Shown: piece after piece, positions 1 through 8,547 of the stretch
Position numbering within the stretch: position 1 is the stretch's first letter
Layout: every line of letters starts with the position of its first letter
DNA from: Mycoplasmoides genitalium G37
GTDB lineage: Bacteria > Bacillota_I > Bacilli_A > Mycoplasmatales > Mycoplasmoidaceae
Length of the DNA: 32,000 nt
Direction of reading: 5' to 3'
Assembly (NCBI RefSeq): GCF_000027325.1
Contig: NC_000908.2
Span: forward strand, 1 to 32,000
The notes under the pieces: model-generated
What the model was told of the DNA's origin: nothing
Databases searched by the model: none
Seen by the model: the letters and a program-made list of their open reading frames with translations, nothing else
Made by a program: the position numbers and the translations under genes

Positions 1-17
1 TAAGTTATTATTTAGTT

Positions 18-354
18 AATACTTTTAACAATATTATTAAGGTATTTAAAAAATACTATTATAGTATTTAACATAGTTAAATACCTTCCTTAATACTGTT
101 AAATTATATTCAATCAATACATATATAATATTATTAAAATACTTGATAAGTATTATTTAGATATTAGACAAATACTAATTTTATATTGCTTTAATACTTA
201 ATAAATACTACTTATGTATTAAGTAAATATTACTGTAATACTAATAACAATATTATTACAATATGCTAGAATAATATTGCTAGTATCAATAATTACTAAT
301 ATAGTATTAGGAAAATACCATAATAATATTTCTACATAATACTAAGTTAATACT
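18..354. repeat. Degenerate 11-bp periodic array built on the hexamer AATACT (complement AGTATT)
   Basis: Exact AATACT starts at 18, 52, 92, 138, 171, 193, 204, 237, 338 and 349. AGTATT starts at 63, 149 and 303. AATACC/GGTATT starts at 41, 80 and 314. Sites 138 to 314 all fall in the same register modulo 11, and the intervening 11-bp steps carry degenerate copies. Confidence 0.8.
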
Positions 355-446
355 ATGTGTAGAATAATAAATAATCAGATTAAAAAAATTTTATTTATCT
401 GAAACATATTTAATCAATTGAACTGATTATTTTCAGCAGTAATAAT

Positions 447-471
447 TACATATGTACATAGTACATATGTA
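447..471. repeat. Two copies of the 10-bp palindrome TACATATGTA separated by CATAG
   Basis: Read directly: the copies lie at 447-456 and 462-471. Confidence 0.8.
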
Positions 472-531
472 AAATATCATTAATTTCTGTTATATATAAT
501 AGTATCTATTTTAGAGAGTATTAATTATTAC

Positions 532-559
532 TATAATTAAGCATTTATGCTTAATTATA
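532..559. repeat. 28-bp palindrome (13-bp perfect arms TATAATTAAGCAT / ATGCTTAATTATA, 2-nt centre) followed by AGCTTTTT
   Basis: Read directly: arms at 532-544 and 547-559, with a T-run beginning at 563. Confidence 0.8.
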
Positions 560-685
560 AGCTTTTTATGAACAAAATTATAGACATTTTAGTTCTTATA
601 ATAAATAATAGATATTAAAGAAAATAAAAAAATAGAAATAAATATCATAACCCTTGATAACCCAGAAATTAATACTTAATCAAAA

Positions 686-1828
686 ATGAAAATATTAATT
701 AATAAAAGTGAATTGAATAAAATTTTGAAAAAAATGAATAACGTTATTATTTCCAATAACAAAATAAAACCACATCATTCATATTTTTTAATAGAGGCAA
801 AAGAAAAAGAAATAAACTTTTATGCTAACAATGAATACTTTTCTGTCAAATGTAATTTAAATAAAAATATTGATATTCTTGAACAAGGCTCCTTAATTGT
901 TAAAGGAAAAATTTTTAACGATCTTATTAATGGCATAAAAGAAGAGATTATTACTATTCAAGAAAAAGATCAAACACTTTTGGTTAAAACAAAAAAAACA
1001 AGTATTAATTTAAACACAATTAATGTGAATGAATTTCCAAGAATAAGGTTTAATGAAAAAAACGATTTAAGTGAATTTAATCAATTCAAAATAAATTATT
1101 CACTTTTAGTAAAAGGCATTAAAAAAATTTTTCACTCAGTTTCAAATAATCGTGAAATATCTTCTAAATTTAATGGAGTAAATTTCAATGGATCCAATGG
1201 AAAAGAAATATTTTTAGAAGCTTCTGACACTTATAAACTATCTGTTTTTGAGATAAAGCAAGAAACAGAACCATTTGATTTCATTTTGGAGAGTAATTTA
1301 CTTAGTTTCATTAATTCTTTTAATCCTGAAGAAGATAAATCTATTGTTTTTTATTACAGAAAAGATAATAAAGATAGCTTTAGTACAGAAATGTTGATTT
1401 CAATGGATAACTTTATGATTAGTTACACATCGGTTAATGAAAAATTTCCAGAGGTAAACTACTTTTTTGAATTTGAACCTGAAACTAAAATAGTTGTTCA
1501 AAAAAATGAATTAAAAGATGCACTTCAAAGAATTCAAACTTTGGCTCAAAATGAAAGAACTTTTTTATGCGATATGCAAATTAACAGTTCTGAATTAAAA
1601 ATAAGAGCTATTGTTAATAATATCGGAAATTCTCTTGAGGAAATTTCTTGTCTTAAATTTGAAGGTTATAAACTTAATATTTCTTTTAACCCAAGTTCTC
1701 TATTAGATCACATAGAGTCTTTTGAATCAAATGAAATAAATTTTGATTTCCAAGGAAATAGTAAGTATTTTTTGATAACCTCTAAAAGTGAACCTGAACT
1801 TAAGCAAATATTGGTTCCTTCAAGATAA
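686..1828 (+). CDS. dnaN: DNA polymerase III beta subunit (sliding clamp)
   Basis: Uninterrupted 380-aa ORF with an ATG start. It occupies the origin-proximal position upstream of gyrB/gyrA, and its length and sequence match the clamp family as I recognise it. The stop overlaps the next start (ATAATG). Confidence 0.93.
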   Translation: MKILINKSELNKILKKMNNVIISNNKIKPHHSYFLIEAKEKEINFYANNEYFSVKCNLNKNIDILEQGSLIVKGKIFNDLINGIKEEIITIQEKDQTLLVKTKKTSINLNTINVNEFPRIRFNEKNDLSEFNQFKINYSLLVKGIKKIFHSVSNNREISSKFNGVNFNGSNGKEIFLEASDTYKLSVFEIKQETEPFDFILESNLLSFINSFNPEEDKSIVFYYRKDNKDSFSTEMLISMDNFMISYTSVNEKFPEVNYFFEFEPETKIVVQKNELKDALQRIQTLAQNERTFLCDMQINSSELKIRAIVNNIGNSLEEISCLKFEGYKLNISFNPSSLLDHIESFESNEINFDFQGNSKYFLITSKSEPELKQILVPSR

Positions 1829-2760
1829 TGAATCTTTACGATCTTTTAGAACTACCAACTACAGCATCAATAAAAGAAATAAAAATTGCTTATAAAAGAT
1901 TAGCAAAGCGTTATCACCCTGATGTAAATAAATTAGGTTCGCAAACTTTTGTTGAAATTAATAATGCTTATTCAATATTAAGTGATCCTAACCAAAAGGA
2001 AAAATATGATTCAATGCTGAAAGTTAATGATTTTCAAAATCGCATCAAAAATTTAGATATTAGTGTTAGATGACATGAAAATTTCATGGAAGAACTCGAA
2101 CTTCGTAAGAACTGAGAATTTGATTTTTTTTCATCTGATGAAGATTTCTTTTATTCTCCATTTACAAAAAACAAATATGCTTCCTTTTTAGATAAAGATG
2201 TTTCTTTAGCTTTTTTTCAGCTTTACAGCAAGGGCAAAATAGATCATCAATTGGAAAAATCTTTATTGAAAAGAAGAGATGTAAAAGAAGCTTGTCAACA
2301 GAATAAAAATTTTATTGAAGTTATAAAAGAGCAATATAACTATTTTGGTTGAATTGAAGCTAAGCGTTATTTCAATATTAATGTTGAACTTGAGCTCACA
2401 CAGAGAGAGATAAGAGATAGAGATGTTGTTAACCTACCTTTAAAAATTAAAGTTATTAATAATGATTTTCCAAATCAACTCTGATATGAAATTTATAAAA
2501 ACTATTCATTTCGCTTATCTTGAGATATAAAAAATGGTGAAATTGCTGAATTTTTCAATAAAGGTAATAGAGCTTTAGGATGAAAAGGTGACTTAATTGT
2601 CAGAATGAAAGTAGTTAATAAAGTAAACAAAAGACTGCGTATTTTTTCAAGCTTTTTTGAGAACGATAAATCTAAATTATGGTTCCTTGTTCCAAACGAT
2701 AAACAAAGTAATCCTAATAAGGGCGTTTTTAACTATAAAACTCAGCACTTTATTGATTAA
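1828..2760 (+). CDS. J-domain (DnaJ-like) protein with a non-DnaJ C-terminal region
   Basis: The N-terminal J domain carries an HPD motif (YHPDVN, HPD at 1915-1923). The ORF continues in frame through several TGA codons to TAA at 2758-2760 (310 aa). I see no Cys-rich zinc-finger or G/F region. Confidence 0.85.
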
Positions 2761-2778
2761 AAAACCTTTCATTTTTAA

Positions 2779-4797
<2,019 letters not shown>

Positions 4798-4811
4798 TTT
4801 GGTTAGTATAA

Positions 4812-7322
4812 ATGGCAAAGCAACAAGATCAAGTAGATAAGATTCGTGAAAACTTAGACAATTCAACTGTCAAAAGTATTTCATTAGCAAATGAACTTGA
4901 GCGTTCATTCATGGAATATGCTATGTCAGTTATTGTTGCTCGTGCTTTACCTGATGCTAGAGATGGACTTAAACCAGTTCATCGTCGTGTTCTTTATGGT
5001 GCTTATATTGGTGGCATGCACCATGATCGTCCTTTTAAAAAGTCTGCGAGGATTGTTGGTGATGTAATGAGTAAATTCCACCCTCATGGTGATATGGCAA
5101 TATATGACACCATGTCAAGAATGGCTCAAGACTTTTCATTAAGATACCTTTTAATTGATGGTCATGGTAATTTTGGTTCTATAGATGGTGATAGACCTGC
5201 TGCACAACGTTATACAGAAGCAAGATTATCTAAACTTGCAGCAGAACTTTTAAAAGATATTGATAAAGATACAGTTGACTTTATTGCTAATTATGATGGT
5301 GAGGAAAAAGAACCAACTGTTCTACCAGCAGCTTTCCCTAACTTACTTGCAAATGGTTCTAGTGGGATTGCAGTTGGAATGTCAACATCTATTCCTTCCC
5401 ATAATCTCTCTGAATTAATTGCGGGTTTAATCATGTTAATTGATAATCCTCAATGCACTTTTCAAGAATTATTAACTGTAATTAAAGGACCTGATTTTCC
5501 AACAGGAGCTAACATTATCTACACAAAAGGAATTGAAAGCTACTTTGAAACAGGTAAAGGCAATGTAGTAATTCGTTCTAAAGTTGAGATAGAACAATTG
5601 CAAACAAGAAGTGCATTAGTTGTAACTGAAATTCCTTACATGGTTAACAAAACTACCTTAATTGAAAAGATTGTAGAACTTGTTAAAGCTGAAGAGATTT
5701 CAGGAATTGCTGATATCCGTGATGAATCCTCTCGAGAAGGAATAAGGTTAGTGATTGAAGTAAAACGCGACACTGTACCTGAAGTTTTATTAAATCAACT
5801 TTTTAAATCAACAAGATTACAAGTACGCTTCCCTGTTAATATGCTTGCTTTAGTTAAAGGAGCTCCTGTACTTCTCAACATGAAACAAGCTTTGGAAGTA
5901 TATCTTGATCATCAAATTGATGTTCTTGTTAGAAAAACAAAGTTTGTGCTTAATAAACAACAAGAACGTTATCACATTTTAAGCGGACTTTTAATTGCTG
6001 CTTTAAATATTGATGAGGTTGTTGCAATTATTAAAAAATCAGCAAATAACCAGGAAGCAATTAATACATTAAATACAAAGTTTAAGCTTGATGAAATTCA
6101 AGCTAAAGCAGTTCTTGACATGCGTTTAAGGAGCTTAAGCGTACTTGAAGTTAACAAACTTCAAACTGAACAAAAAGAGTTAAAAGATTCAATTGAATTT
6201 TGTAAGAAAGTGTTAGCTGATCAAAAATTACAGCTAAAAATAATCAAAGAGGAATTGCAAAAAATCAATGATCAGTTTGGTGATGAAAGAAGAAGTGAAA
6301 TTCTCTATGATATCTCTGAGGAAATTGATGATGAATCATTGATAAAAGTTGAGAATGTAGTGATAACTATGTCTACAAATGGTTATCTAAAAAGGATTGG
6401 AGTTGATGCTTATAATCTTCAACATCGTGGTGGAGTTGGGGTTAAAGGGCTAACTACTTATGTTGATGATAGTATTAGTCAATTATTGGTCTGTTCAACT
6501 CACTCTGACTTATTATTTTTTACTGATAAGGGTAAGGTTTATAGAATTAGAGCTCATCAAATTCCCTATGGTTTTAGAACAAATAAAGGTATTCCCGCTG
6601 TTAACTTAATCAAAATTGAAAAGGATGAAAGAATTTGTTCATTGTTATCTGTTAATAACTATGATGATGGTTATTTCTTTTTCTGTACTAAAAATGGAAT
6701 TGTTAAAAGAACGAGCTTGAATGAATTCATCAACATCTTAAGTAATGGTAAGCGGGCTATATCTTTTGATGATAATGACACTTTGTATTCAGTAATTAAA
6801 ACCCACGGAAATGATGAGATTTTTATTGGTTCTACCAATGGATTTGTTGTTCGCTTCCATGAAAATCAACTCAGAGTTCTTTCAAGAACAGCAAGAGGTG
6901 TATTTGGTATCAGTTTAAATAAAGGAGAATTTGTTAATGGACTATCAACTTCAAGCAACGGTAGCTTACTTTTATCAGTCGGTCAAAATGGAATAGGTAA
7001 ATTAACGAGCATAGATAAATATAGACTCACAAAACGTAATGCTAAGGGAGTTAAAACTCTAAGGGTTACTGATAGAACAGGCCCTGTTGTTACAACAACC
7101 ACTGTTTTTGGTAATGAGGATCTTTTAATGATTTCCTCTGCTGGTAAAATTGTGCGTACCAGTTTACAAGAACTTTCAGAACAAGGTAAAAACACTTCTG
7201 GTGTTAAGTTAATTAGATTAAAAGATAATGAACGTTTAGAAAGAGTAACTATCTTTAAAGAAGAGTTAGAAGACAAAGAAATGCAACTAGAAGATGTTGG
7301 ATCCAAACAAATTACGCAATAA
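4812..7322 (+). CDS. gyrA: DNA gyrase subunit A
   Basis: Uninterrupted 836-aa ORF. The QRDR-type region [10 protein letters not shown] and the catalytic [10 protein letters not shown] (active-site Tyr) are present, and the C-terminal beta-pinwheel repeats are recognisable. Confidence 0.97.
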
Positions 7323-8547
7323 CTATGATTTCTTTAAAAAGAAACTGTTAGAAAGAAATGTAAATGAGCAATTATTAAATCAGTTTATTCAAACTGATAA
7401 ACTAATGCGCAAAAACTTGCAACAACTTGAACTTGCTAACCAAAAACAAAGCTTGTTGGCAAAACAAGTTGCTAAGCAAAAAGATAATAAAAAGCTATTA
7501 GCTGAATCAAAAGAACTTAAGCAGAAGATTGAAAACTTAAATAATGCTTATAAAGATTCACAAAACATTAGTCAAGATTTACTTCTAAATTTTCCTAATA
7601 TTGCTCATGAATCAGTTCCTGTTGGTAAAAATGAATCAGCAAACTTAGAACTTCTTAAAGAAGGGAGAAAACCAGTTTTTGATTTCAAACCTTTACCACA
7701 TCGAGAGTTATGTGAAAAGTTAAATTTAGTTGCTTTTGATAAAGCTACTAAGATTAGTGGAACTAGGTTTGTTGCATATACAGATAAAGCAGCTAAACTA
7801 CTTAGAGCGATAACTAATCTAATGATTGACCTTAATAAAAGCAAGTATCAAGAATGAAACCTGCCAGTTGTTATTAATGAATTAAGTTTAAGATCAACCG
7901 GACAACTACCTAAGTTTAAAGATGATGTTTTTAAACTAGAAAACACCCGTTATTATCTTTCTCCAACTTTAGAGGTACAACTTATCAATTTACATGCTAA
8001 TGAAATTTTTAATGAAGAAGATTTACCTAAATACTACACTGCAACAGGTATTAACTTTCGTCAAGAAGCGGGTAGTGCTGGTAAACAAACCAAAGGAACT
8101 ATTAGATTGCATCAGTTTCAAAAAACTGAGTTAGTTAAGTTTTGTAAACCTGAAAATGCTATCAATGAATTGGAAGCAATGGTTAGAGATGCTGAACAAA
8201 TCTTAAAGGCACTTAAGTTACCTTTTAGAAGGTTATTGTTATGTACTGGTGATATGGGCTTTAGTGCTGAAAAAACATATGATCTTGAAGTTTGAATGGC
8301 AGCTAGCAATGAATATCGTGAAGTTTCTTCTTGTTCATCTTGTGGTGATTTTCAAGCAAGAAGAGCTATGATTCGTTACAAAGATATTAACAACGGTAAA
8401 AACAGTTATGTTGCTACTTTAAATGGAACAGCATTATCTATTGATAGAATTTTTGCTGCAATTCTAGAAAATTTTCAAACAAAAGATGGCAAAATTCTTA
8501 TCCCACAAGCATTAAAAAAATACCTTGATTTTGACACAATCAAGTAA
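7294..8547 (+). CDS. serS: Seryl-tRNA synthetase
   Basis: Fragments 7294-7857, 8107-8295 and 8296-8547 share a frame and are joined through TGA with no TAA/TAG between them (translated by hand). The protein has an N-terminal coiled-coil arm and a class II core ([23 protein letters not shown]). Length is 417 aa, and it overlaps the gyrA 3' end by 29 nt. Confidence 0.93.

What the first reader, a model, noticed from the sequence alone, without database searches (positions are those of the whole stretch)
18..354. Helically phased 11-bp array of AATACT/AGTATT hexamers fills the putative origin
Exact AATACT starts at 18, 52, 92, 138, 171, 193, 204, 237, 338, 349 (and 671). Its complement AGTATT starts at 63, 149, 303 (and 517). 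One-off AATACC/GGTATT starts at 41, 80 and 314. Eight of these sites (138, 149, 171, 193, 204, 237, 303, 314) share one register modulo 11. The 11-bp steps between them (116, 127, 160, 182, 215, 226, 249, 260, 282, 292, 325) carry degenerate copies such as AATACA, AATATT, GATATT, TATATT, TGTATT, AGTATC and ATTACT. If sites were placed independently, the chance of eight sharing one of 11 registers is about (1/11)^7. A period of 11 bp is roughly one helical turn, so every site faces the same side of the duplex and the A/T runs are phased, which would favour intrinsic curvature. The pattern looks like an iteron-like protein-loading or nucleoid-protein array, or a decayed 11-bp tandem repeat. It sits exactly where DnaA boxes would be expected, and I can find none. 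I do not know of a described function for this motif.
Basis: seen in the sequence. Interest (0 to 1): 0.75.

Follow-up and report, generated by a model that had tools for sequence, protein, structure and literature searches.

The report
Phased protein-binding hexamer array at Mycoplasma origin
The 11-bp-spaced AATACT/AGTATT hexamers are a real, conserved array of palindromic protein-binding sites beside the Mycoplasma genitalium replication origin, and they probably act as a plasmid-style "centromere" for an unrecognised ParA-partner protein encoded next door, not as DnaA boxes.

Summary
Every listed site exists. ARTAYT hexamers are about 5-fold enriched over dinucleotide shuffles, the best period is exactly 11.00 bp, and all +11 pairs in the 32-kb window lie in 1-354.

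The context is wrong. The spacer is not dnaA-dnaN. It lies between dnaN and a divergent operon: soj/parA, an uncharacterised 218-aa protein, then dnaA. The array runs 26 bp beyond the window start, to within 17 bp of the soj ATG.

The same arrays sit upstream of soj in M. pneumoniae, M. testudinis (18 sites, one register), M. amphoriforme, M. alvi, M. gallisepticum, M. tullyi and an uncultured relative. The unit is an 8-bp palindrome, tARTAYTa, with an invariant central TA and mixed orientation.

The 218-aa protein (MPN_687 family) has a conserved basic N-terminal peptide, a disordered linker and a C-terminal domain that is probably ribbon-helix-helix.

Best reading (about 0.55): a type-Ib-like ParA/RHH/centromere-operator module embedded in oriC.

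Main rival (about 0.2): divergent DnaA boxes. The M. pneumoniae copies were published as "TATTA" DnaA boxes.

No binding was tested here. The identity of the binding protein is inferred.

The parts
1..354 (.). In-window part of the phased hexamer array. The array continues 26 bp upstream of window position 1, to 17 bp from the soj ATG. It has about 29 units of consensus tARTAYTa at 11-bp steps, with a few 1-2 bp phase slips.
7..68 (.). Soj-proximal units: ATTATT 7, AATACT 18, AATATT 30, GGTATT 41, AATACT 52, AGTATT 63. Units at -26, -15, -4, 7 and 18 share one register. Units at 30, 41, 52 and 63 share the next register (+1).
   Evidence: The first three align position-for-position with M. pneumoniae hexamers of flipped orientation.
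80..121 (.). Irregularly phased units: AATACC 80, AATACT 92, AATACA 116.
127..242 (.). Longest uninterrupted run, 11 consecutive units in one register: AATATT 127, AATACT 138, AGTATT 149, GATATT 160, AATACT 171, TATATT 182, AATACT 193, AATACT 204, TGTATT 215, AATATT 226, AATACT 237.
   Evidence: Every unit keeps the central TA.
249..354 (.). Distal units: AATATT 249, AATATG 260, AATATT 273 (off phase), AGTATC 282, ATTACT 292, AGTATT 303, AATACC 314, AATATT 325, AATACT 338, AATACT 349.
446..472 (.). Perfect palindrome TTACATATGTACATAGTACATATGTAA (12-bp stem, 3-nt loop). It is not part of the array. Its core ATATGTACATAGTACATAT is identical in M. pneumoniae.
   Evidence: z = -4.5
532..559 (.). 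Inverted repeat TATAATTAAGC-ATTT-GCTTAATTATA. It is conserved in M. pneumoniae with a compensatory C/G to T/A double change.
   Evidence: z = -4.3
566..586 (+). Two DnaA-box-like 9-mers, TTATGAACA (566-574) and TTATAGACA (578-586), each 2 mismatches from TTATCCACA. They lie in a block conserved with M. pneumoniae. This is the more likely DnaA site and dnaN operator.
   Evidence: DnaA represses dnaN in M. pneumoniae (PMC6721554).
686..1828 (+). dnaN (DNA polymerase III beta clamp, 380 aa), the right-hand boundary of the spacer.

Best explanation
The array is a row of about 30 binding sites for a two-fold-symmetric DNA-binding protein. Each site is an 8-bp palindrome, tARTAYTa, centred on an invariant TpA. 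Sites repeat every 11 bp, so successive dimers sit on nearly the same face of the helix and can touch each other.

The most likely binder is the uncharacterised protein encoded second in the adjacent divergent operon soj(parA) -> 218-aa ORF -> dnaA. This is the MPN_687 family, annotated 'hypothetical' everywhere. It has three parts:
- a conserved basic N-terminal peptide, KKRKxFxDLxxD
- a disordered linker
- a C-terminal strand-helix-helix domain that looks like a ribbon-helix-helix (RHH)

That is the architecture of the centromere-binding proteins of type Ib plasmid partition systems (ParG, omega, pB171 ParB).

Proposed mechanism, all inferred:
1. RHH dimers insert their beta-ribbon (invariant His-x-Tyr) into the major groove at each hexamer.
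2. They polymerise cooperatively along the 11-bp lattice into a one-sided or gently writhed nucleoprotein filament.
3. Their N-terminal tails engage Soj-ATP and stimulate its ATPase.
4. The first units abut the soj -10 box, so the same complex autoregulates soj, the RHH gene and dnaA.

Because the complex sits inside oriC, it would be the missing ParB/parS equivalent of these ParB-less bacteria. It could mark the origin for segregation, modulate DnaA through Soj, and possibly recruit SMC-ScpAB.

Shown here: the array, its phase, its palindromic unit, its conservation, the operon synteny, and the protein family architecture.

Inferred: who binds, and everything downstream of binding.
For: 1. 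The array is real and under selection. Enrichment and exact 11.00-bp periodicity hold against shuffles in M. genitalium. The same core and period occur upstream of soj in relatives:
- M. testudinis: 18 sites in one register, and 102 of 103 pairwise distances are 0 mod 11
- M. amphoriforme: 56 of 61
- M. alvi and M. pneumoniae
- M. gallisepticum and M. tullyi: about 10 dispersed AATATT-N5-AATATT doublets or triplets
- an uncultured relative

2. The unit is palindromic. I placed 101 frames by register, so the frames that match the hexamer do so partly by construction. Across all 101, T3 is 99% and A4 is 100%, with A1 84%, R2 93%, Y5 99% and T6 87%, and the spacers are uninformative. The matrix correlates 0.99 with its own reverse complement. 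AATACT and AGTATT are intermixed in one register. Orthologous sites flip orientation between M. genitalium and M. pneumoniae.

3. Synteny dnaN <- spacer -> soj -> small ORF is conserved in all eight species. The array starts 17-61 bp from the soj ATG in the four species with continuous soj-proximal arrays: M. genitalium, M. pneumoniae, M. testudinis and M. amphoriforme.

4. The ORF family has 15 representative clusters. The N-terminal motif (F, D, L, D invariant) and the C-terminal GxHFY...R..KV..AK..NI..S..IT.ILD are conserved.

5. Evidence for an RHH fold:
- AF2 gives an extended segment plus two helices, with block-mean pLDDT about 80-95.
- Four of the 8 Foldseek PDB hits are RHH proteins, with CopG-DNA on top.
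- Sub-threshold Pfam hits go to DUF6364 (11 of 15 members), CopG_antitoxin, RHH_3 and RHH_5.
- hhalign against CopG aligns strand, helix A and helix B in register, with pairwise E = 3e-4. The CopG and ParG sequences used were verified against the PDB.

6. Soj is a small Walker-type ParA without an N-terminal DNA-binding domain.

7. In M. penetrans the soj partner has a different predicted ribbon, TNIYLK. There the array upstream of soj has a different core, ARTTAY, and a 12-bp period, with 10 forward and 4 reverse units ending 45 bp from the ATG. The operon there is not followed by dnaA.

8. Near-canonical DnaA boxes (TTTTCCACA and similar) lie outside the arrays in M. testudinis, M. amphoriforme and M. 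tullyi.

9. In M. pneumoniae, SMC-ScpAB ChIP signal maps to genome nt 1-100 (PMC12494982). That is roughly the soj-proximal hexamer cluster. The authors note that no ParB is known to recruit it (PMC6721554).
Against: - No binding data exist for the RHH protein. 'MPN687' occurs in no searchable paper.
- The RHH assignment rests only on sub-threshold sequence and fold matches. No Pfam, NCBIfam or PDB hit is significant.
- Published work assigns the M. pneumoniae TATTA repeats to DnaA on the basis of ChIP-seq (PMC3536716, PMC6721554).
- The AATACT versus AATATT preference differs between M. testudinis and M. amphoriforme, although their predicted ribbons are identical.
- M. testudinis strongly prefers the asymmetric form (17 asymmetric, 1 symmetric). 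A symmetric reader does not predict that.
- The co-variation argument has only two classes.
- In M. penetrans the 2-kb region upstream of soj also holds DnaA-box-like 9-mers, so it may itself be an origin.
Confidence: 0.55

Rival explanations
1. The hexamers are divergent, low-affinity DnaA boxes. DnaA-ATP would oligomerise along the 11-bp lattice, as on the low-affinity arrays of E. coli oriC, to open the origin and to autoregulate the soj-dnaA operon.
For: [quoted passage not shown]
- DnaA ChIP peaks at oriC (PMC6721554).
- The spacer supports plasmid replication (Blotz 2018, as cited in PMC12494982).
- The DnaA recognition-helix signature is divergent in M. genitalium (RSHSSV) and M. pneumoniae (RNHSTV), against the canonical RDHTTV, which I quote from memory. 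An altered box is therefore plausible.
- No 9-mer within 1 mismatch of TTATCCACA exists in either spacer.
- From memory (Rozgaja 2011): E. coli low-affinity sites are 9-mers separated by 2 bp, which also gives an 11-bp period.
Against: - The unit is a 6-8 bp palindrome, not an asymmetric 9-mer.
- Orientations are intermixed within one register. That does not fit head-to-tail DnaA filaments.
- The same core is kept in species whose DnaA signature differs: RSHSSV, RNHSTV and RDHSTV.
- Species with the near-canonical RDHSTV signature have near-canonical boxes (TTTTCCACA, TTATCAACA) elsewhere in the spacer, mostly near dnaN.
- M. genitalium and M. pneumoniae share a separate conserved block of box-like 9-mers at window 566-586.
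- Only 5 of 10 predicted boxes overlap essential segments in M. pneumoniae (PMC12494982).
- ChIP-seq resolution cannot separate sites within a 700-bp spacer.
Confidence: 0.2
2. The array is bound by some other origin-associated or nucleoid protein, or it works mainly as intrinsically bent or easily deformed DNA that helps origin architecture. Candidate proteins are the DnaB1/DnaD-like MPN525, SsbB, HU, and SMC-ScpAB binding directly.
For: - ChIP peaks of DnaB1, SsbB, Smc, ScpA and ScpB are reported at M. pneumoniae oriC (PMC6721554, PMC12494982).
- Phased TpA steps and a weak 11-bp phasing of the 8 A-tracts (power 4.3) could bias bending.
Against: - Sequence-specific conservation of a palindromic core across at least eight species points to a specific dimeric reader rather than a shape-only element.
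- None of these proteins is known to read such a motif (my knowledge).
- There are few A-tracts.
- The M. gallisepticum arrangement is dispersed doublets over 1.5 kb, which does not suit one continuous bend.
Confidence: 0.2
3. The array is a neutral, decaying 11-bp tandem repeat with no function.
For: - TRF finds two short 22-bp repeats.
- Arrays clearly grow by duplication in M. amphoriforme (two copies of a 9-unit block) and M. alvi (three repeats of about 110 bp).
Against: - Core positions are about 85-100% conserved while the spacer positions carry no information.
- Motif, period and position next to soj persist across species whose flanking sequence is unalignable.
- Orthologous sites flip orientation while keeping the dyad.
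Confidence: 0.03

Closest known systems
Type Ib plasmid partition cassettes: TP228 ParF-ParG-parH, pSM19035 delta-omega with heptad repeats, pB171 par2 ParA-ParB-parC1/C2
   Same: - A small Walker ParA is followed by a small protein with a flexible basic N-tail and a C-terminal RHH.
- The centromere doubles as operator. It is an array of short (4-7 bp) repeats in direct and inverted orientation immediately upstream of the operon.
- Omega binds asymmetric heptads in either orientation at a fixed period.
The plasmid facts are from my own knowledge. ParG and CopG identity was verified.
   Different: - It is chromosomal and embedded in oriC next to dnaN.
- The operon continues into dnaA.
- The repeat period is 11 bp with a 5-bp free spacer, rather than contiguous 7-8 bp units.
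- There are about 30 units.
- There is no significant sequence similarity to ParG or omega.
- The linker is long and Q/N/P-rich.
R1 ParR-parC (type II): ten 11-bp iterons bound by an RHH dimer array. pSK41 and pB171 ParR segrosomes belong here too.
   Same: RHH dimers bind 10-11-bp iterated sites flanking or overlapping the par promoter and form a continuous helical nucleoprotein filament (my knowledge).
   Different: The partner NTPase there is actin-like ParM. Here it is a Walker-type Soj/ParA. The repeats there are direct, not palindromic with mixed orientation.
Arc and Mnt operators of phage P22
   Same: Two RHH dimers bind half-sites whose centres are about 11 bp apart on one face of the DNA and contact each other cooperatively (my knowledge). 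The AATATT-N5-AATATT doublets of M. gallisepticum look like this minimal unit.
   Different: Those operators hold only two dimers. They have no ParA partner and no origin context.
M. pneumoniae oriC 'TATTA' repeats, published as putative DnaA boxes
   Same: They are the same physical elements. Fifteen of the 20 TATTA pentamers are the 3' part of RRTATT hexamers (PMC3536716).
   Different: The published description is a 5-mer assigned to DnaA. In the papers I could search, it is not described as an 11-bp-phased palindromic hexamer array, as conserved across Mycoplasmoides, or as linked to soj and MPN_687.
E. coli oriC low-affinity DnaA arrays (R5M/tau2/I1/I2 and C3/C2/I3/C1)
   Same: They have 11-bp centre-to-centre spacing of initiator sites inside an origin (my knowledge).
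   Different: Those are asymmetric 9-mers, all in one orientation within an array, with 4 sites per array. Here the unit is palindromic, orientations are mixed, and there are about 30 units.
Chromosomal Soj-Spo0J(ParB)-parS near oriC (B. subtilis and most bacteria)
   Same: It is an origin-proximal ParA system. There, ParB's N-terminal peptide controls Soj, Soj controls DnaA, and ParB-parS loads SMC (my knowledge; PMC7022226).
   Different: No HTH/CTPase ParB gene is present and no parS lies in the window. The partner would be an RHH protein, and the site an iterated hexamer array.

Membership tests
DnaA-box cluster of a bacterial oriC | Asymmetric 9-bp box resembling TTATCCACA | tested here: not met
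   In the M. genitalium spacer the only matches within 2 mismatches are one at the array edge (spacer 399) and two at window 566-586, outside the array. The array unit is a palindromic 6-8-mer.
DnaA-box cluster of a bacterial oriC | Closely spaced boxes in one orientation, supporting head-to-tail DnaA oligomers | tested here: not met
   The spacing is 11 bp, but AATACT and AGTATT orientations are intermixed in one register in every species.
DnaA-box cluster of a bacterial oriC | Occupied by DnaA in vivo or in vitro | not testable with these tools
   Literature only. A DnaA ChIP peak lies somewhere in the M. pneumoniae spacer, and the TATTA repeats are called DnaA boxes (PMC3536716, PMC6721554). 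Resolution is not sufficient to assign sites.
Type Ib partition centromere/operator (parH, parC, omega-heptad type) | Array of short repeats, direct and inverted, immediately upstream of a parA operon | tested here: met
   The array starts 17 bp from the soj ATG in M. genitalium and 30-61 bp in three relatives (M. pneumoniae, M. testudinis, M. amphoriforme). Orientations are mixed.
Type Ib partition centromere/operator (parH, parC, omega-heptad type) | First gene is a small deviant-Walker-A ParA without an N-terminal DNA-binding domain | tested here: met
   The 269-aa Soj hits AAA_31 at 7e-35, plus CbiA and MipZ. Its best NCBIfam hit is ParA_partition, below that family's cutoff.
Type Ib partition centromere/operator (parH, parC, omega-heptad type) | Second gene is a small dimeric ribbon-helix-helix protein with a flexible N-terminal tail | tested here: inconclusive
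   - AF2 gives a disordered N-terminal region of about 170 aa, then an extended segment and two helices with block-mean pLDDT about 80-95.
- The top Foldseek hit is CopG-DNA, and 4 of 8 hits are RHH proteins, but E is above 1.
- Pfam RHH-type hits are all below threshold.
- hhalign against CopG gives E = 3e-4 and probability 38%.
- Dimerisation was not modelled.
Type Ib partition centromere/operator (parH, parC, omega-heptad type) | The second protein binds the repeats, stimulates ParA ATPase, and the cassette stabilises a replicon | not testable with these tools
   This needs EMSA or ChIP, ATPase assays and plasmid-stability assays.
ParB(HTH)-parS chromosomal partition system | 16-bp palindromic parS (TGTTNCACGTGAAACA) and a ParB/Spo0J gene | tested here: not met
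   No parS within 3 mismatches occurs in 32 kb. No ParB-family gene lies in the operon or flanks. The literature says M. pneumoniae lacks ParB (PMC6721554).
Plasmid-type iterons (Rep-initiator binding) | 17-22-bp direct repeats in one orientation, next to a rep gene | tested here: not met
   The period is 11 bp, the core is palindromic, orientation is mixed, and there is no rep gene.
Type II ParR-parC | 10-11-bp iterons plus an actin-like ParM partner | tested here: not met
   The 11-bp repeat geometry is met, but the adjacent NTPase is a Walker ParA, not ParM.
Intrinsically curved DNA (phased A-tracts) | A-tracts of at least 4 bp repeated in phase with the helix | tested here: inconclusive
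   There are only 8 A-tracts in 410 bp. Power at period 11 is 4.3, against about 1 expected. No curvature model or gel assay was run.

The most novel reading that the evidence does not exclude
Mycoplasmoides chromosomes, including the 'minimal' M. genitalium, carry a plasmid-type (type Ib) partition module built into oriC. It consists of Soj/ParA, a previously unrecognised ribbon-helix-helix centromere-binding protein (MPN_687 family), and an array of about 30 sites phased at 11 bp. This would be the missing ParB/parS equivalent of these bacteria. It would mark the origin for segregation, recruit SMC-ScpAB, autoregulate dnaA, and couple Soj to DnaA. The published 'TATTA DnaA boxes' of M. pneumoniae would then be centromere repeats.
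Probability: 0.45. Interest if true: 0.8.

Novelty: new variant of a known kind. Interest (0 to 1): 0.7.

Why it matters
M. genitalium and M. pneumoniae are the reference 'minimal cells' for whole-cell models, yet their origin and segregation machinery are poorly defined.
- Reviews state that Mycoplasma lacks par systems (PMC7022226).
- The M. pneumoniae regulatory-network study left open what recruits SMC-ScpAB to oriC without ParB (PMC6721554).
- Only half of the predicted DnaA boxes behave as essential (PMC12494982).

If the array is the centromere/operator of a Soj-RHH module, three things follow:
- It supplies the missing ParB analogue.
- It reassigns the published TATTA 'DnaA boxes'.
- It explains why soj, this ORF and dnaA form one operon facing oriC.

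It also gives a compact, directly testable system: one 50-aa domain, one 8-bp palindrome, one spacing rule. It would further show that a plasmid-type partition cassette can be domesticated as the chromosomal origin-segregation system.

Even under the DnaA reading, the strict 11-bp lattice and the palindromic unit would be an unusual origin grammar.

Tried and rejected
- Both genome-contig scans, with the full-length and the C-terminal alignments of the 218-aa protein, returned nothing, not even M. genitalium itself. This looks like a tool limitation from low-complexity back-translated patterns. Relatives were reached instead through Soj homologues and the look-up of encoding contigs.
- A profile search with the six-species C-terminal alignment in the word-indexed protein database found nothing. 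The exhaustive representative search did find the family.
- Pfam and NCBIfam gave no hit above threshold for the 218-aa protein.
- PDB profile searches gave only non-significant hits.
- hhalign against ParG aligned only the two helices, and against omega it failed.
- The Blotz 2018 oriC paper and the ChIP-seq supplementary tables are not held. I could therefore not map the published DnaA boxes or peak summits.
- One literature search was wasted because 'MG470' matched unrelated strain and accession names.
- Decayed tandem repeat: rejected.
- parS: absent.
- A-tract curvature: weak.
- The sigma-70 consensus scan of the spacer was uninformative in 16% GC DNA, with 16 hits against 10.4 expected.
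- A simple co-variation between AATACT/AATATT preference and either the RHH strand or the DnaA helix was looked for and not found.
Full report
**What the window is.** The window is the start of the Mycoplasma genitalium chromosome. Its dnaN (686-1828) and gene order match CP159789.1 positions 1-7828. The genome uses genetic code 4, so the table-11 ORF list fragments genes.

**The observation.** Exact AATACT/AGTATT occurs 13 times in the first 350 bp and only 40 times in the remaining 31.6 kb. Dinucleotide shuffles of 1-360 give 1.8 +/- 1.3 copies, and none of 5000 reaches 13. Eight of the 16 exact or one-off sites share register 6 mod 11 and five share register 8. Period 11 is the only outlier among periods 5-20.

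A simulation gives about 3.5e-4. With the generalised core A[AG]TA[CT]T the signal is much stronger:
- 22 sites in 410 bp against 4.5 +/- 2.0 in shuffles
- a spectral peak at exactly 11.00 bp, power 14.9 against a shuffle maximum of 6.2
- eight +11 pairs against 0.04 expected

In the whole window, all six +11 pairs lie inside 1-354.

Full-length contigs of M. genitalium (L001-L003, spacers identical to the window) show what lies left of window position 1. After only 43 more non-coding bases comes the start codon of a divergently transcribed operon:
- soj/parA-like ATPase (269 aa)
- a 218-aa ORF with no Pfam hit
- dnaA

So the 728-bp spacer is soj-dnaN, not dnaA-dnaN. Three more in-phase hexamers lie in the 43 bp missing from the window: AATATT at -26, and AATACT at -15 and -4. 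The array therefore begins 17 bp from the soj ATG. There it abuts the only perfect TATAAT on the soj strand. That last point is read directly from the sequence, and the transcription start is not known.

**Conservation.** I reached relatives through Soj homologues and fetched their loci. The arrangement dnaN <- spacer -> soj -> small ORF holds in M. pneumoniae, M. testudinis, M. amphoriforme, M. alvi, M. gallisepticum, M. tullyi and an uncultured relative. dnaA follows the small ORF in most of them.

Each spacer carries the same core at the same period next to soj:
- M. testudinis has 18 AATACT/AGTATT sites in a single register. 102 of 103 pairwise distances up to 121 bp are multiples of 11. 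About 31 consecutive 11-bp frames keep a central TA.
- M. amphoriforme uses mostly AATATT (56 of 61 distances in phase). The array is two copies of a 9-unit block.
- M. alvi has three repeats of about 110 bp, each with four units.
- M. pneumoniae has RGTATT/AATACY and AATATT sites with 11- and 22-bp steps, despite 26% GC.
- M. gallisepticum and M. tullyi have about ten dispersed AATATT-N5-AATATT doublets or triplets over 1.5 kb.

In the M. genitalium / M. pneumoniae alignment the array region is otherwise poorly alignable. The first three hexamers still align position-for-position, with flipped asymmetry: AATACT against AGTATT and GGTATT. This rules out a neutral decaying tandem repeat.

**Anatomy of the unit.** I pooled 101 frames chosen by register only, from five species. 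I placed the frames from the matched sites, so this is partly by construction for the matching frames. It is not by construction for the 29 degenerate frames. The consensus is t-A-R-T-A-Y-T-a, with T3 at 99% and A4 at 100%. The 5-bp spacers carry no information. The matrix correlates 0.99 with its own reverse complement.

Asymmetric versions occur in both orientations in one register. This is what a two-fold-symmetric dimer reading a short core in one major groove would leave behind. An 11-bp step puts successive dimers on nearly one face of the helix.

**The neighbouring protein.** The 218-aa ORF is 'Uncharacterized protein MPN_687' in M. pneumoniae and 'hypothetical' in M. genitalium and M. 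gallisepticum. 'MPN687' appears in no searchable paper.

An exhaustive HMM search found about 15 representative family members. All have the same build:
- an N-terminal KKRKxFxDLxxD peptide, with F, D, L and D invariant
- a variable, low-complexity linker
- a C-terminal domain of about 45 aa, L.KG.HFY...R..KV..AK..NI..S..IT.ILD

Evidence on the fold of that domain:
- AlphaFold models the linker as disordered. It models the C-terminus as an extended segment plus two helices, with block-mean pLDDT about 80-95. That is what a ribbon-helix-helix monomer looks like without its partner.
- The Foldseek top PDB hit is the CopG-DNA complex. MatP (twice) and Arc are also among the eight hits. All E-values are above 1.
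- Pfam gives only sub-threshold hits: DUF6364 in 11 of 15 members, plus CopG_antitoxin, RHH_3 and RHH_5.
- hhalign against CopG aligns strand, helix A and helix B in register, with E = 3e-4 and probability 38%.

I rate the RHH fold as likely but not proven.

Soj is a small Walker ParA with no extra DNA-binding domain. A small ParA, an RHH protein with a basic flexible tail, and an upstream array of short direct and inverted repeats together make the signature of type Ib plasmid partition cassettes (my knowledge; PMC7022226 for the classes).

**M. penetrans.** This species gives a limited co-variation test. Its soj partner keeps the N-terminal motif and a textbook RHH C-terminus, but with a different ribbon: TNIYLK instead of GxHFY. 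The array upstream of its soj has a different core, ARTTAY, and a 12-bp period. It has ten forward and four reverse units and ends 45 bp from the ATG. That operon is not followed by dnaA.

[quoted passage not shown] Fifteen of the 20 TATTA pentamers there are the tail of an RRTATT hexamer, so these are the same elements. DnaA does give a ChIP peak at oriC (PMC6721554). The DnaA recognition helix is unusual in M. genitalium (RSHSSV) and M. pneumoniae (RNHSTV).

- The unit is palindromic, and orientations are mixed within one register.
- The same core is kept in species with the near-canonical RDHSTV helix.
- Near-canonical boxes lie outside the arrays in those species.
- M. genitalium and M. 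pneumoniae share a separate conserved block with TTATGAACA and TTATAGACA at window 566-586, about 100 bp upstream of dnaN. DnaA represses dnaN (PMC6721554).
- Only five of ten predicted boxes overlap essential segments in M. pneumoniae (PMC12494982).

**A link to an open question.** Yus et al. found Smc, ScpA and ScpB at oriC. They remarked that M. pneumoniae has no ParB to recruit them (PMC6721554). Miravet-Verde et al. place that signal at genome nt 1-100 (PMC12494982). By my approximate coordinate mapping (dnaN start at about 692), this is spacer positions about 57-156. That is the soj-proximal GGTATT/AATACC cluster. [quoted passage not shown]

**Verdict.**
- 'Protein-loading array' is right in kind. 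The gene context, 'no DnaA boxes' and 'decayed repeat' are not.
- My best explanation (0.55) is a centromere/operator for a Soj-RHH partition-type module embedded in oriC.
- Divergent DnaA boxes (0.2) and another binder or a structural role (0.2) remain open.
- No binding has been measured, and the RHH assignment is sub-threshold.

Noticed in passing
window 446-472: A perfect palindrome, TTACATATGTACATAGTACATATGTAA (12-bp stem, 3-nt loop; RNA fold z = -4.5). Its 19-nt core is 100% identical in M. pneumoniae, although the flanks diverge. It could be a hairpin of one of the oriC ncRNAs, a terminator, or a dimer-binding site.
   Followed up: partly
window 532-559: An inverted repeat, TATAATTAAGC-ATTT-GCTTAATTATA. 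It is conserved in M. pneumoniae with a compensatory double change (AAGC...GCTT to AAGT...ACTT), so the pairing or dyad is under selection.
   Followed up: partly
window 566-586: Two DnaA-box-like 9-mers, TTATGAACA and TTATAGACA, 12 bp apart in a block conserved with M. pneumoniae (TTATTAACA...). They overlap a -35-like TAGACA upstream of dnaN. This is a candidate for the true DnaA operator.
   Followed up: partly
L001 2504-3817 (dnaA, outside the window), L006, L007, L008, L011: The DnaA domain IV 'RDHTTV' recognition signature reads RSHSSV in M. genitalium and RNHSTV in M. pneumoniae. It reads RDHSTV in M. testudinis, M. amphoriforme and M. alvi. The histidine that follows in canonical DnaA is replaced in all five.
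   Followed up: no
L012 3450-3735 (M. penetrans, upstream of soj): Four copies of a palindromic element of about 20 bp, (TG)TAATT(G)ATTACGTAATTAT, spaced about 88 bp apart. They lie in a 2-kb non-coding region that also holds several TTTTACACA and TTACACACA DnaA-box-like 9-mers.
   Followed up: no
L008 M. amphoriforme spacer 61-149 and 335-423; L011 M. alvi spacer 130-163, 240-273, 359-392: The arrays have grown by recent segmental duplication. M. amphoriforme has two near-identical 9-unit blocks, and M. alvi has three repeats of about 110 bp with four units each.
   Followed up: partly
L001 3817-4473 (218-aa ORF, outside the window): The exact 218-aa product of this strain type is found only in Logan assemblies. 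The named NCBI entries are 217-aa variants from other strains. The gene may be unannotated or differently called in the reference genome. The soj and ORF reading frames overlap by 11 nt.
   Followed up: no
window 1828-2760 and elsewhere: Table-11 ORF calling truncates genes because TGA encodes Trp here. For example, the 81-aa ORF at 1828-2073 is the start of the 310-aa DnaJ-domain gene at 1828-2760.
   Followed up: yes
Soj proteins: M. genitalium and M. pneumoniae Soj are 90% identical. The RHH partner's linker is only about 40% identical overall, yet its two termini are nearly invariant. That pattern suggests strong constraint on Soj and on the two interaction ends of its partner.
   Followed up: no
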